The notes under the pieces are model-generated. The model was not told the origin of the DNA. It searched no databases and was given only the letters and a program-made list of their open reading frames with translations. Both the position numbers and the translations under genes were made by a program. From the NCBI GenBank assembly GCA_018831265.1, contig JAHJCO010000019.1, positions 104,534 to 168,533 of the forward strand: a DNA stretch of 64,000 nt. The letters are read 5' to 3'. This document shows positions 13,082 to 14,640 of the stretch, one piece after another. Source of the DNA: Actinomycetota bacterium. GTDB lineage: Bacteria; Actinomycetota; Geothermincolia; Fen-727; Anoxymicrobiaceae. How positions within the stretch are numbered: the stretch's first letter is position 1; each line of letters opens with the position of its first letter.

Positions 13082-13369
13082 TCAGCAGCAGGCGCCGCCC
13101 GATTCGCAGCCGCAGACGGGCTCCTTGCGGCCGGTCAGGGCGGCGATCATCATGGCCGCGGCGCAGCCCACGCCGCTGTCAACCTTGATGGCGCCCCTCG
13201 GGCAGTTCAGCGCGCAGGCCCCGCACTCCATGCAGGCGTCCGGGTCGGCGAGGTAGACCGAGCGCTCGCCGTCGGCGAAGACGCCGTGCGGGCAGACCGT
13301 CATGCACATCCCGCAGTCGTTGCAGAGCGCCTCGTCGTACTCGAGCGTGTTTGTCTTTGTCTCCGCCAT
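13082..13369 (-). CDS. hgcB: HgcB, the 2x[4Fe-4S] ferredoxin of the mercury-methylation pair
   Basis: CNDCGMCMTVCP and the C(M)ECGA motif (ACMECGACALNCP). C-terminal ...GGACC vicinal cysteines. 4 nt downstream of hgcA. Confidence 0.8.
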   Translation of the reverse strand: MAETKTNTLEYDEALCNDCGMCMTVCPHGVFADGERSVYLADPDACMECGACALNCPRGAIKVDSGVGCAAAMMIAALTGRKEPVCGCESGGACC

Positions 13370-13373
13370 CTTC

Positions 13374-14417
13374 CTAACCTTTCCGCGTCCGGGCGATCCG
13401 CTGCGCCGCGTTCAAGATTACACCCGCCAGGGCCATGCCGGCCATGACCGGCACGTATCTGTATATCTCCCGGCGGACGCCGCTTGGTGAGGTGCAGGGG
13501 GTCGCACCCGTGAAGTTCAGCGCGATGAACGCGCTCAGCGGCGGCAGCCCGAGCATGTAGGAGGCCGCCCGCGCGGCCTTTCCCGGGACGCCCGAGCCGT
13601 TGTCGTCGAGGAGGGACGCGGACGCCGCGGCGACGGCGACGGCTCCTCCCAGCATGAACCCCTTCACGCTGTAGTCCTTCGCCGGCAGGTAGGGTAAAAG
13701 GGCTGGGACCCCGACCAGGCCGGCCACGGCGGCCCCCAGCAGACCGGCCGCGGCGAGCGGTCCGTCGAGGAAGTAGGCTCCCAGAGAGAGCGCGGCCGCG
13801 GCGGGAAGACCCTGGGTCGCCTCGACGGGGACCAGCACGATGCGGTCCTTGAAGTCGAACCGTATCCGGCGCATCTGGGGGGTCGCCCTGCCCTCGCGGA
13901 GGAACCCGGGCAGGTCCTCGGCCCTGATGGGCCCGTACTCCACCTTGAAGCCTGAGCGCATCCGCGCCTCGTGTGCGCTCACACCGGTCGCTCCCAGCTG
14001 CGGGACGATCACCACGCGTCCCTCGACCACGTCGGCGAGCCCGGTGCTCTCTATCCTGGAGACCAGCTCGTCGGTCCCGAAGGTACCCTTGCCGGCGGCG
14101 CACCACACGTTGATGCCGTCGGTGTCCAGCACCAGGATATAGGCGTCGATACCGGAAAGCGCGGAGCGAAGGGCGTCGAAGGAGAGCCGGTAGTTCGCGG
14201 TCACGAACACGGGCGAGGAAGGGCCCGCGCCCCCGAGCCTGTACAGGCCGGGCTCGACCCGCCAGTCGTTCCTCTTGGCTCCCAGCCTCGCGGCCAGGTG
14301 GACCAGGTGATCGTGCACGGTGAGATCGGGGACGGTCTGTCTGATGTCGGGGCTCTTCTCTTCCACCACGTCCTCCCGGCTATCCTGTGATGTCTTTGAG
14401 GACCGGCCCCAGCACAC
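13374..14417 (-). CDS. hgcA: HgcA, the corrinoid protein of the mercury-methylation pair. CFeSP-like domain with the cap-helix motif NVWCAAGK, plus a C-terminal TM domain.
   Basis: GINVWCAAGKGTFGT is present. The C-terminal ~120 aa forms 4-5 TM helices. The exact start is uncertain because the ORF overlaps the upstream small gene by 38 nt. Confidence 0.85.
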   Translation of the reverse strand: MCWGRSSKTSQDSREDVVEEKSPDIRQTVPDLTVHDHLVHLAARLGAKRNDWRVEPGLYRLGGAGPSSPVFVTANYRLSFDALRSALSGIDAYILVLDTDGINVWCAAGKGTFGTDELVSRIESTGLADVVEGRVVIVPQLGATGVSAHEARMRSGFKVEYGPIRAEDLPGFLREGRATPQMRRIRFDFKDRIVLVPVEATQGLPAAAALSLGAYFLDGPLAAAGLLGAAVAGLVGVPALLPYLPAKDYSVKGFMLGGAVAVAAASASLLDDNGSGVPGKAARAASYMLGLPPLSAFIALNFTGATPCTSPSGVRREIYRYVPVMAGMALAGVILNAAQRIARTRKG

Positions 14418-14640
14418 CTTTGACCATCTCGGTGAGCGCGTCCGCCTTGACCAGGGTGATGCAGCACACCTCTCCGTCCCTCTCGTGGGTCACCACAGCA
14501 AGCTTGTCGCCGGGCTTGATCCCCGCGCGGCTCCGGACGTCCTTGGGCAGGACCATCTGGCCCCGCTCGTCAACGTTGAGCACCGACTCCACCCTGCAGG
14601 TGGTGACCGGCTCGCAACAGGTCTTGCTCTTTGCGGCCAA
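14380..14640 (-). CDS. Small AbrB/SpoVT (swapped-hairpin) domain protein with two vicinal-cysteine pairs (TCCEPVTTC ... EVCCI). Apparent TTG start with a strong AAGGAGG SD.
   Basis: RGQMVLPKDVRSRAGIKPGDKLAV matches the AbrB/MazE-like core. Overlaps the hgcA 5' end. Confidence 0.5.
   Translation of the reverse strand: MAAKSKTCCEPVTTCRVESVLNVDERGQMVLPKDVRSRAGIKPGDKLAVVTHERDGEVCCITLVKADALTEMVKGVLGPVLKDITG

What the first reader, a model, noticed from the sequence alone, without database searches (positions are those of the whole stretch)
13082..14640. hgcA-hgcB mercury-methylation gene pair with both signature motifs
ORF 13374..14417 contains GINVWCAAGKG, the N(V/I)WCA(A/G)GK cap-helix signature of the corrinoid protein HgcA, followed by a C-terminal multi-helix membrane domain. 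Four nt downstream, ORF 13082..13369 is a two-cluster ferredoxin with the HgcB motif C(M/I)ECGA (ACMECGACALNCP) and a C-terminal CC. Together these are the established genetic determinant of Hg(II) methylation. Finding it in a high-GC genome alongside 2-oxoacid:ferredoxin oxidoreductase and ADP-forming acetyl-CoA synthetase alpha subunits suggests a fermentative or syntrophic methylator.
Basis: partly seen in the sequence, partly recalled or inferred. Interest (0 to 1): 0.7.

Follow-up and report, generated by a model that had tools for sequence, protein, structure and literature searches.

The report
Mercury-methylation operon hgcC-hgcA-hgcB
This is an ordinary, intact copy of the known mercury-methylating gene pair hgcAB in an uncultured actinobacterium; the small regulator gene in front of it belongs to a family that, with the same DNA control site, also sits in front of arsenic-methylating genes.

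Summary
On the minus strand lie hgcA (13374..14369; the mechanical ORF start at 14417 is too long) and, 4 nt downstream, hgcB (13082..13369). Both pass NCBI's curated equivalog models (HgcA 382.6 bits against a cut-off of 275; HgcB 106.8 against 99). Every defining sequence feature is present: the NVWCAAGK cap-helix cysteine, five C-terminal membrane helices, two CX2CX2CX3CP motifs, the GVGC cysteine and the terminal CC. The corrinoid iron-sulfur protein and fused HgcAB-like alternatives fail their cut-offs.

The window is 99.98% identical to a public Actinomycetota MAG (GCA_018824995.1), where these genes are labelled only "carbon monoxide dehydrogenase" and "4Fe-4S binding protein". Actinomycetota hgcAB is already published, so the kind is known.

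Follow-up added one thing. A dyad, TCTGA-N4-CTGA-W4-TCAGA, overlaps the hgcC promoter. It recurs upstream of HgcC-family genes in 75 of 91 fetched loci. Most of those genes precede arsM (56) rather than hgcA (26). This suggests a thiol-based metal(loid)-responsive autorepressor, which is untested.

The parts
14699..14704 (-). Candidate -35 hexamer (TTGCAA) of the hgcCAB promoter
   Evidence: Read from the sequence. It is weak: with the -10 hexamer it matches 8 of 12 consensus positions, and the consensus scan did not call it. Near-consensus TTGACA-N17-TATAAT promoters sit at the same place relative to the operator in related loci, and 68 of 89 loci have a promoter scoring at least 9 of 12. Inferred, not shown.
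14676..14681 (-). Candidate -10 hexamer (TATTCT), overlapped by the first operator half-site
   Evidence: Homology with the 94%-identical relative L003 starts at 14678, close to this hexamer; the sequence further upstream is unrelated.
14656..14678 (-). Operator-like element TCTGActtta-CTGAATAATCAGA (direct half-site plus dyad)
   Evidence: CTGAWWWWTCAG occurs once in the 64-kb window, here at 14657-14668, against 0.00 expected from shuffles. The dyad, allowing one mismatch, lies within 90 nt upstream of hgcC in 10 of 13 hgcC+ genome loci. It lies upstream of hgcA in only 2 of 66 hgcC- loci. It also lies upstream of the AbrB gene in 65 of 78 metagenome loci. The consensus comes from 77 loci.
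14380..14640 (-). hgcC: 86-aa Cys-rich AbrB/SpoVT-fold protein (TTG start; SD AAGGAGGA at 14647-14654)
   Evidence: NF040962 scores 121.3 bits against a cut-off of 70, and Pfam MazE_antitoxin scores 32.5. The AlphaFold2 model has pLDDT 77, and its best folds are SpoVT, AbrB-N and C68. Cys60 is invariant, Cys59 nearly so, and N-terminal CC pairs are conserved. The exact protein is MBU1671335.1.
13374..14369 (-). hgcA: corrinoid membrane protein, 331 aa (alternative GTG start at 14366 gives 330 aa)
   Evidence: NF040863 scores 382.6 bits against a cut-off of 275, and Pfam CdhD scores 50.7. A homologue 95% identical is annotated HgcA. The AlphaFold2 model has pLDDT 87.2. The top Foldseek hit is 9a0b_A, the HgcAB model.
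14088..14111 (-). Cap-helix signature NVWCAAGK; Cys89 codon at 14100-14102
   Evidence: N86, V87, W88, C89, A90, A91 and G92 are invariant in 38 homologues. CFeSP has Thr or Ala at these positions (alignment).
13377..13841 (-). HgcA C-terminal membrane domain with five helices (residues ~178-201, 203-226, 232-253, 260-288, 294-329)
   Evidence: Kyte-Doolittle hydropathy segments and DSSP on the AlphaFold2 model.
13082..13369 (-). hgcB: 95-aa 2x[4Fe-4S] ferredoxin with Cys69 and a C-terminal Cys94-Cys95
   Evidence: NF040864 scores 106.8 bits against a cut-off of 99. Motifs were located. In related loci, C(M/I)ECGA and GxGC are each present in 76 of 78 HgcB sequences.
12967..13057 (-). Stable GC-rich hairpin downstream of hgcB; likely 3' end or terminator of the operon, with no U-tract
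   Evidence: Inverted repeat of 19-nt arms, 89% complementary. The RNA fold is -70 kcal/mol with z = -4.56. The same GGGGTCAGACCCC inverted pair follows another gene at 43524-43569. The terminator scan, which requires a T-run, found nothing.

Best explanation
The locus is a three-gene operon, hgcC-hgcA-hgcB, on the minus strand of an uncultured anaerobic Actinomycetota genome close to Candidatus Anoxymicrobiaceae (class Ca. Geothermincolia).

HgcA is a membrane-anchored corrinoid protein. Its N-terminal domain is homologous to the cobalamin-binding domain of the corrinoid iron-sulfur protein, and Cys89 supplies the thiolate ligand to cobalt. Five C-terminal helices anchor it in the membrane. 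HgcB is a two-[4Fe-4S] ferredoxin that re-reduces the cobalamin. Its Cys69 and terminal Cys94-Cys95 are the residues implicated in handling Hg(II).

From published biochemistry on the Pseudodesulfovibrio enzyme, the cycle is as follows. Co(I) is methylated, with SAM as the donor in vitro. The methyl group then passes from methyl-Co(III) to Hg(II), giving methylmercury. HgcB restores Co(I).

Shown here: family membership, all signature residues, membrane topology and operon layout. Inferred: activity in this organism.

HgcC most likely binds the TCTGA/CTGA-W4-TCAGA element that overlaps the -10 box and transcription start, and so autoregulates the operon. Its conserved cysteine pairs are the probable sensing site. 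That step is inferred only from comparative evidence.
For: Equivalog HMMs are passed for all three proteins.

HgcA evidence:
- The cap-helix residues are invariant.
- Five helices are seen in the hydropathy plot and in the pLDDT-87 AlphaFold model.
- The fold matches the HgcAB model 9a0b_A at E = 1.8e-19 with 42% identity over the full length. CFeSP matches only over ~127 residues (and by sequence).

HgcB evidence: all motifs are present.

Operon layout: gaps of 10-13 nt and 4 nt between the genes, each with a Shine-Dalgarno sequence.

Synteny and host:
- hgcC-hgcA-hgcB order is the same in all five related Actinomycetota loci.
- HgcA falls in an Actinomycetota clade.
- Composition is uniform and GC3 is host-like.
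- Enolase is 81% identical to that of Ca. Anoxymicrobium japonicum.

Mechanism comes from PMC11588087.

Operator evidence. HgcC fold and conserved DNA-loop residues plus CC pairs.
Against: - To my knowledge (not checked here) no Actinomycetota organism has been shown experimentally to methylate mercury; McDaniel et al. 2020 call the actinobacterial hgcA carriers only putative methylators (PMC7438021). hgcAB presence or expression does not always predict methylation rates (bioRxiv 10.1101/2022.10.17.512643).
- HgcB clears its cut-off only narrowly (106.8 against 99).
- The AlphaFold model does not render residues 81-97, the cap region, as a helix. Confidence there is about 75, and no cofactor is modelled.
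- The window's own promoter hexamers are weak (8 of 12) and were not called by the scan.
- No cobalamin riboswitch and no mer or ars genes are present in the window.
- HgcC binding to the dyad has not been shown by any experiment.
Confidence: 0.9

Rival explanations
1. The pair is a genuine HgcAB orthologue, but its selected function is not mercury methylation. Instead it is tied to arsenic or other metal(loid) or methyl-group metabolism, and Hg methylation is a side reaction. This overlaps with the best explanation rather than excluding it.
For: The HgcC-family regulator and its operator are shared between hgcAB and arsenite methyltransferase genes: 56 loci are arsM-linked and 26 hgcA-linked. 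One locus, L038, carries hgcA-hgcB-abrB-arsM. In P. mercurii, hgcAB is controlled by an ArsR-like repressor that responds to arsenic and SAH. No mer genes lie nearby.
Against: No ars gene is present in this window. A shared regulator shows a shared signal, not a shared substrate. The only activity reported for HgcAB in the papers read here is Hg methylation (PMC11588087).
Confidence: 0.3
2. The genes are HgcAB-like paralogues that do not methylate mercury, as the fused HgcAB-like family may not.
For: The fused-family model gives a partial hit: NF043039 scores 182.5 bits on HgcA and 52.8 on HgcB.
Against: Both scores are far below the 285-bit cut-off. The two genes are separate. The true HgcA and HgcB models are passed. 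All residues shown by mutagenesis to be essential are present, namely the equivalents of HgcA C93 and HgcB C73, C94 and C95.
Confidence: 0.05
3. The larger gene is a corrinoid iron-sulfur protein subunit of the Wood-Ljungdahl pathway. This is what the public record's label 'carbon monoxide dehydrogenase' implies.
For: Pfam CdhD scores 50.7 bits. PDB CFeSP large subunits match at E ~ 4e-13. The GenBank name of the exact protein is 'carbon monoxide dehydrogenase'.
Against: Only ~110-125 residues align, corresponding to the C-terminal cobalamin domain of CFeSP. NF003195 scores 69.2 against a cut-off of 306. There is no N-terminal [4Fe-4S] domain and no TIM-barrel domain. A five-helix membrane domain is present instead. 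The Cys of NVWCAAGK replaces Thr in CFeSP. No CODH/ACS genes are present in the window.
Confidence: 0.01
4. HgcC is the antitoxin of a type II toxin-antitoxin module that happens to lie next to hgcA, as KEGG, COG and Pfam labels (PrlF, MazE) suggest.
For: Pfam MazE_antitoxin scores 32.5 bits. JGI names homologues 'antitoxin PrlF'. The toxin-antitoxin reading was raised in PMC10349881.
Against: No toxin gene follows. In 82 of 92 classified loci the next gene is hgcA or arsM. The specific family model NF040962 is passed, while the PrlF and MazE antitoxin models score 16-18 bits against cut-offs of 65-125. Cys pairs are conserved, which is not known to me as a feature of antitoxins (my own knowledge).
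Confidence: 0.03

Closest known systems
HgcA/HgcB of Pseudodesulfovibrio mercurii ND132 (the experimentally characterised mercury methylation pair)
   Same: Same two-gene architecture. Same cap-helix Cys (C93 there, C89 here). Same five-helix membrane domain. Same two CX2CX2CX3CP motifs. Same essential HgcB cysteines (C73, C94, C95 there; C69, C94, C95 here). The fold matches the published HgcAB model 9a0b_A at 42% identity.
   Different: The upstream regulator is an AbrB-fold HgcC here, not the ArsR-like repressor of ND132. The host is an uncultured Actinomycetota lineage with no tested methylator.
hgcAB of Actinomycetota MAGs (JAZDFZ010000043, fen_727, Ca. Anoxymicrobiaceae; McDaniel et al. 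2020)
   Same: Same hgcC-hgcA-hgcB order and the same HgcA clade. Protein identity ranges from 95% down to 60%. This group was already reported as putative methylators.
   Different: Compared with the 94%-identical relative, the DNA upstream of the -10 box and the DNA downstream of hgcB are non-homologous.
Corrinoid iron-sulfur protein large subunit (AcsC/CdhE; PDB 2h9a, 2ycl, 4djd)
   Same: The cobalamin-binding Rossmann-like domain is homologous, over ~125 residues at rmsd ~3 Å.
   Different: This protein has no [4Fe-4S] domain and no TIM-barrel domain. It has a membrane domain instead. Cys replaces Thr at the cap-helix position. It fails the family cut-off.
ArsR-type metal(loid)-responsive autorepressors, including ArsR2 upstream of hgcAB in ND132
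   Same: Like HgcC, ArsR2 is a small regulator encoded first in the operon and co-transcribed with hgcAB. HgcC additionally has conserved cysteines and a dyad operator overlapping the promoter; in canonical ArsR repressors these features exist too (my own knowledge, not checked here). Both are linked to hgcAB and to ars genes.
   Different: HgcC has an AbrB/SpoVT swapped-hairpin fold, not a winged helix. Metal binding and DNA binding by HgcC are untested.
AbrB/SpoVT/MazE transition-state regulators and antitoxins
   Same: Same N-terminal DNA-binding fold (SpoVT 2w1t, AbrB 1yfb). Conserved R-G-Q-x-V-x-P-K loop.
   Different: HgcC has a family-specific invariant CC pair in the last beta-strand and a Cys-rich N-terminal tail. 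It has no toxin partner. It has a sharply defined dyad operator, whereas AbrB lacks a strict consensus (the last point is from my own knowledge).

Membership tests
HgcA (NCBIfam NF040863, mercury methylation corrinoid protein) | Score above the curated equivalog cut-off | tested here: met
   382.6 bits against a cut-off of 275, aligned over model positions 2-323 of 325.
HgcA | N-terminal corrinoid-binding domain homologous to CFeSP | tested here: met
   Pfam CdhD scores 50.7 bits. PDB 2h9a matches at E = 4.2e-13. Foldseek gives 2ycl, 2h9a and 4djd at rmsd 2.9-3.5 Å over ~127 residues.
HgcA | Cap-helix motif N(V/I)WCA(A/G)GK with the cobalt-ligating Cys | tested here: met
   NVWCAAGK at residues 86-93. 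N86 to G92 are invariant across 38 homologues.
HgcA | C-terminal domain of five transmembrane helices | tested here: met
   Five hydrophobic segments. AlphaFold2 helices at 178-201, 203-226, 232-253, 260-288 and 294-329.
HgcA/HgcB | hgcB immediately downstream of hgcA | tested here: met
   The intergenic gap is 4 nt. The same order is seen in 76 of 80 related genome loci.
HgcA/HgcB | Cobalamin binding and Hg(II) methylation activity | not testable with these tools
   This needs heterologous expression or complementation with isotope-labelled Hg assays.
HgcB (NCBIfam NF040864) | Score above the curated cut-off | tested here: met
   106.8 bits against a cut-off of 99, a narrow margin.
HgcB | Two CX2CX2CX3CP [4Fe-4S] motifs, including C(M/I)ECGA | tested here: met
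   CNDCGMCMTVCP at residue 16 and CMECGACALNCP at residue 46.
HgcB | Equivalents of the essential Cys73 and the C-terminal Cys94-Cys95 | tested here: met
   Cys69 in SGVGCA, and Cys94-Cys95 as the last two residues.
HgcC (NCBIfam NF040962, HgcAB-associated protein) | Score above the cut-off and position directly upstream of hgcA | tested here: met
   121.3 bits against a cut-off of 70. The stop codon lies 10-13 nt before the hgcA start.
HgcC | Family is specific to hgcAB neighbourhoods, as its name implies | tested here: not met
   Of 92 HgcC-family genes classified, 56 precede arsM and 26 precede hgcA. Nine of nine arsM-linked members tested score 118-128 bits on NF040962. The window's own copy is hgcA-linked.
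Corrinoid iron-sulfur protein gamma subunit (NF003195) | Score above the cut-off; [4Fe-4S] and TIM-barrel domains present | tested here: not met
   69.2 bits against a cut-off of 306. Only the model's C-terminal positions 322-445 align.
HgcAB-like fusion protein (NF043039) | Single fused polypeptide scoring above the cut-off | tested here: not met
   182.5 bits against a cut-off of 285. There are two separate genes.
Type II toxin-antitoxin antitoxin (MazE/PrlF) | Adjacent cognate toxin gene; antitoxin family model passed | tested here: not met
   The downstream gene is hgcA. PrlF and MazE NCBIfam models score 16-18 bits against cut-offs of 65-125.

The most novel reading that the evidence does not exclude
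HgcC is not an hgcAB accessory protein. It is the founding member of an uncharacterised class of AbrB-fold, cysteine-based metal(loid)-responsive autorepressors. Through one conserved operator (TCTGA-N4-CTGA-W4-TCAGA, overlapping the -10 box and transcription start) it controls either hgcAB or the arsenite methyltransferase arsM in bacteria and archaea.

If so, mercury and arsenic methylation genes would answer to the same signal. Candidates are As(III), Hg(II), or a thiol, SAM or SAH status. This window's operon would be switched on by that signal. It would give a second, independent regulatory link between hgcAB and arsenic, beside the ArsR-like repressor of P. mercurii.
Probability: 0.4. 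Interest if true: 0.6.

Novelty: already known. Interest (0 to 1): 0.3.

Why it matters
hgcAB is the only known genetic determinant of microbial methylmercury production, so correct recognition matters for predicting where the neurotoxin forms. In the public record this locus is still labelled "carbon monoxide dehydrogenase" and "4Fe-4S binding protein", so annotation-based surveys that rely on product names would miss it. Otherwise it adds only one more copy from an Actinomycetota lineage already reported as a putative methylator.

The more useful outcome concerns regulation. What controls hgcAB expression, and what the genes are "for", are open questions. The HgcC family, its conserved cysteine pairs, its sharply defined operator and its predominant linkage to arsM together give a concrete hypothesis. 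It can be tested cheaply by gel shift with and without As(III), Hg(II) or SAH.

Tried and rejected
- **Rfam scan of the whole window.** No match was found, so there is no cobalamin or SAM riboswitch in front of the operon.
- **Consensus promoter and terminator scan of 12700-15000.** Nothing was called. The promoter was instead placed by comparison with related loci, and the 3' hairpin by folding.
- **Search for mer, ars or Wood-Ljungdahl genes in the window.** Pfam scans of about 50 ORFs found none.
- **PDB sequence search for an experimental HgcA structure.** Only CFeSP chains were returned. The fold search returned only the 2020 integrative model 9a0b.
- **Toxin-antitoxin reading of hgcC.** Rejected, because no toxin gene is present and the antitoxin models fail.
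- **Recent horizontal acquisition.** Not supported. Composition is uniform, GC3 is host-like, and HgcA sits in an Actinomycetota clade.
- **The divergent 365-aa Fe-S protein (14908..16005) as a conserved hgcAB partner.** A homologue lies near hgcAB in only 2 of 80 lineages, so the link is weak.
- **Literature search for 'hgcC'.** The term appears in no relevant paper in the held library. The only paper there that links AbrB with hgcA is PMC10349881. None links AbrB regulators to arsM.
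Full report
**1. The observation**

The two ORFs are on the minus strand at the stated coordinates. The longer one contains GINVWCAAGKG, and its Cys codon is at 14100-14102. The shorter one has two CX2CX2CX3CP motifs (CNDCGMCMTVCP and CMECGACALNCP), a further Cys69 in SGVGCA, and ends in Cys94-Cys95. The hgcA stop codon and the hgcB ATG are 4 nt apart.

The mechanical 347-aa ORF (GTG at 14417) overlaps the upstream gene. A GGGAGG sequence at 14372-14377 is followed by two adjacent GTG codons at 14369 and 14366. 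The curated HgcA model begins aligning at residue 26 of the long ORF. NCBI gene calls give 331 aa for the identical protein and 330 aa for the 95% homologue. The true gene is therefore 13374..14369 or 13374..14366.

**2. What the proteins are**

| Protein | NCBIfam model | Score (bits) | Cut-off (bits) |
|---|---|---|---|
| HgcA | NF040863 (HgcA) | 382.6 | 275 |
| HgcA | NF043039 (fused HgcAB-like) | 182.5 | 285 |
| HgcA | NF003195 (CFeSP gamma subunit) | 69.2 | 306 |
| HgcB | NF040864 (HgcB) | 106.8 | 99 |

Pfam sees only the CdhD-type corrinoid domain, at residues 49-155 of the long ORF. The PDB sequence search returns only CFeSP large subunits, over ~123 residues. In that alignment CFeSP has Thr-Ala-Trp-Ala where HgcA has Trp-Cys-Ala-Ala.

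In an alignment of 38 homologues with 53-71% identity, N86, V87, W88, C89, A90, A91 and G92 are invariant. Hydropathy analysis shows five hydrophobic segments after residue 175. An AlphaFold2 model (pLDDT 87.2, pTM 0.79) shows five long helices at 178-201, 203-226, 232-253, 260-288 and 294-329. Its best PDB match is 9a0b_A, the published integrative HgcAB model, at E = 1.8e-19 and 42% identity over the full length. CFeSP chains follow, over ~127 residues only.

HgcB's signature elements are shared with related loci. C(M/I)ECGA and GxGC are each present in 76 of 78 sequences.

**3. A third gene and the operon**

It has a TTG start preceded by AAGGAGGA with a 6-nt spacer. It scores 121.3 bits on NF040962, "HgcAB-associated protein HgcC" (cut-off 70), and matches the AbrB/MazE/SpoVT domain. 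Its stop codon lies 10-13 nt before the hgcA start. The three genes are tightly packed on one strand, each with its own Shine-Dalgarno sequence.

Downstream of hgcB, a 19-nt inverted repeat at 12967-13057 folds at -70 kcal/mol with z = -4.56. The same GGGGTCAGACCCC inverted pair follows another gene at 43524-43569. It is probably the operon's 3' hairpin, although it has no U-tract. Rfam finds nothing in the window, so there is no riboswitch.

**4. Source and relatives**

The window is 99.98% identical to NCBI MAG contig JAHJFB010000001.1 (GCA_018824995.1). The exact proteins are deposited under these names:

- MBU1671334.1, "carbon monoxide dehydrogenase"
- MBU1671333.1, "4Fe-4S binding protein"
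- MBU1671335.1, "AbrB/MazE/SpoVT family"

A 95%-identical HgcA in another Actinomycetota MAG (JAZDFZ010000043) is annotated HgcA, next to an HgcB and an "HgcAB-associated protein". The next relatives, at 60-72% identity, are all Actinomycetota MAGs, including Stordalen fen_727 and Ca. Anoxymicrobiaceae. A neighbour-joining tree places the window's HgcA inside an Actinomycetota clade, next to Chloroflexota and Methanomicrobia sequences.

The window's enolase is 81% identical to that of Ca. Anoxymicrobium japonicum, class Ca. Geothermincolia. GC content is a uniform 63-68%, and hgcA has host-like GC3. Nothing suggests recent transfer. hgcA+ Actinobacteria MAGs of deep-branching classes were described by McDaniel et al. 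2020 (PMC7438021).

**5. Context**

The neighbours are as follows:

- a divergent 365-aa Fe-S protein with a CCCCSCCC motif (14908..16005)
- PadR
- a SnoaL-like protein
- a metallo-beta-lactamase-fold protein
- an S8 peptidase
- downstream of hgcB, a 1445-aa TPR and polytopic membrane protein

They include a 2-oxoacid:ferredoxin oxidoreductase (34481..37058), two subunits with the domain make-up of the ADP-forming acetyl-CoA synthetase alpha subunit (46490..47926, 54607..56070), and two acetyl-CoA hydrolase/transferase-GNAT fusions. An acyl-CoA dehydrogenase and an enoyl-CoA hydratase are also present. This fits an anaerobic fermentative lifestyle but does not prove one. No mer, ars or CODH/ACS genes are in the window.

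**6. Mechanism**

The mechanism comes from published work on the P. mercurii enzyme (PMC11588087). [quoted passage not shown] HgcB carries two [4Fe-4S] clusters. SAM methylates the cobalamin, and the methyl group passes from methylcob(III)alamin to Hg(II). C93 of HgcA and C73, C94 and C95 of HgcB matter for activity. All the equivalent residues are present here. Activity in this organism is inferred, not shown. The actinobacterial hgcA carriers are described only as putative methylators, and to my knowledge, which I did not check here, none has been tested.

**7. HgcC and its operator (follow-up beyond the finding)**

*The protein.* HgcC has the invariant AbrB-type DNA-loop residues D24, R26, G27, Q28, V30, P32, K33 and R36. 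It also has an invariant Cys60, a near-invariant Cys59, and CC pairs in a disordered N-terminal tail. The AlphaFold2 model (pLDDT 77) matches SpoVT, AbrB-N and related swapped-hairpin DNA-binding domains. Cys59 and Cys60 lie in the last beta-strand.

*The DNA element.* I aligned the DNA upstream of hgcC from 12 loci spanning Actinomycetota, Methanoregula and Syntrophales. This showed a sigma-70-type promoter followed at once by repeated TCTGA/TCAGA half-sites. In the window the element is TCTGActttaCTGAATAATCAGA (14678-14656). It overlaps the candidate -10 hexamer TATTCT (14681-14676).

*Statistics.*

- CTGAWWWWTCAG occurs once in the 64-kb window, at this spot, against 0.00 expected.
- Allowing one mismatch, the dyad lies within 90 nt upstream of hgcC in 10 of 13 hgcC+ genome loci.
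- It lies upstream of hgcA in only 2 of 66 hgcC- loci. The background rate is 0.03 per 90 nt.
- In 80 further metagenome loci fetched with the HgcC alignment, it is present in 65 of 78 assessable cases. It is exact in 36, out of only 42 exact occurrences in 256 kb.
- The consensus from 77 loci is TCaGaaTaTtCTGATTtaTCAGAAaA.
- A promoter matching at least 9 of 12 consensus positions is present in 68 of 89 loci. The dyad usually starts between -2 and +12 nt from the end of the -10 hexamer.

This geometry fits repression by promoter occlusion.

**8. The unexpected part**

Most of these HgcC-family genes are not followed by hgcA. Of 92 classified, 56 precede a ~275-290-aa arsenite methyltransferase and 26 precede hgcA. 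The methyltransferase scores 350-361 bits on NF008823 (cut-off 263).

Nine of nine arsM-linked members tested score 118-128 bits on the "HgcC" model, as high as the window's own copy. In the tree, hgcA-linked and arsM-linked members are interleaved, with at least four hgcA-linked groups. That tree is neighbour-joining on 80 columns and has low resolution. One genome locus, L038, carries hgcA-hgcB-abrB-arsM.

The family is thus a regulator of metal(loid) methylation genes in general. The held literature notes the gene upstream of hgcAB as a "putative transcriptional regulator" (PMC7438021). It is also noted as an AbrB/PrlF/MazE-like "putative archaeal regulator" (PMC10349881). I found no paper describing its operator or its link to arsM. 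This parallels the ArsR-like repressor of hgcAB in P. mercurii, which responds to arsenic and SAH.

That HgcC binds the dyad and senses a thiophilic metal(loid) through its cysteine pairs is inference only.

**9. Verdict**

The finding is real and correctly interpreted, but it belongs to a known kind. It is a standard hgcCAB operon in an Actinomycetota lineage already reported to carry it, and the sequence is already public though poorly labelled. Interest in the finding itself is low. The regulatory side result raises it modestly.

Noticed in passing
L085-L164 (metagenome loci) and L038:1713-1973: Most HgcC-family (NF040962) AbrB genes sit directly upstream of arsenite methyltransferase arsM, not hgcA: 56 against 26 of 92 classified. 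L038 carries hgcA-hgcB-abrB-arsM. The NCBIfam name 'HgcAB-associated protein' therefore describes only part of the family.
   Followed up: yes
window 14656-14678; same position in 75 of 91 related loci: A conserved operator-like element, TCTGA-N4-CTGA-W4-TCAGA, overlaps the -10 box and the likely transcription start upstream of HgcC-family genes in bacteria and archaea. Half-sites often repeat at 9- or 18-bp spacing.
   Followed up: yes
window 8443-13081 versus L003:11286-12237: The DNA just downstream of hgcB differs between this genome and its ~94%-identical relative. Here it holds a 1445-aa TPR and polytopic membrane protein (8491..12828) plus a 250-nt hairpin-rich spacer. There it holds a 279-aa metallo-beta-lactamase-fold gene. 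Synteny resumes on both sides.
   Followed up: partly
window 14679-14973 versus L003:9021-9690: The intergenic DNA upstream of the hgcC -10 box is also non-homologous between the two relatives. L003 has an extra 143-aa ORF there. Homology resumes at 14678, the first operator half-site.
   Followed up: partly
window 12967-13057 and 43524-43569: An inverted pair of GGGGTCAGACCCC / GGGGTCTGACCCC forms strong hairpins just after two unrelated genes, hgcB and an S8 peptidase. There are 7 matches against 0.48 expected. It is possibly a genome-specific terminator or a REP-like element.
   Followed up: partly
window 14908-16005 (+) and 45294-46418 (-); L034:11498-12511: A 365-aa protein with a CCCCSCCC motif and two C-terminal [4Fe-4S] motifs is transcribed divergently from hgcC. 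It has a 35%-identical paralogue in the window, which carries a TrmB-like HTH hit. A 43%-identical homologue lies next to hgcB in an unrelated Deltaproteobacteria MAG. Its function is unknown.
   Followed up: partly
window 13082-14640; GenBank MBU1671333.1, MBU1671334.1 and MBU1671335.1: In the public record the exact proteins are named 'carbon monoxide dehydrogenase', '4Fe-4S binding protein' and 'AbrB/MazE/SpoVT family DNA-binding domain-containing protein'. Surveys that search by product name would miss this hgcAB.
   Followed up: yes
L087, L103, L108, L112, L114, L118, L128, L129, L137 (ORF downstream of hgcC): Many HgcA homologues that follow an hgcC gene appear to carry a Cys-rich N-terminal extension with CC or CxC pairs. 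These resemble the N-termini of ArsM and of HgcC. The window's HgcA lacks such a tail. Start codons were not verified.
   Followed up: no
window 14742-14773: A 32-nt island of almost pure A/T with nested palindromes (TATATACCACAT/ATGTAATATATA) lies in the divergent intergenic region of a 65% GC genome. A 14-bp imperfect palindrome lies beside it at 14781-14811. This is possibly the promoter or operator of the divergent Fe-S protein gene.
   Followed up: no
window 37176-39056 (+) and 48006-49904 (-): There are two paralogous fusions of an acetyl-CoA hydrolase/transferase with a C-terminal GNAT acetyltransferase domain. They lie near the oxoacid:ferredoxin oxidoreductase and the acetyl-CoA synthetase alpha-like genes.
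   Followed up: no
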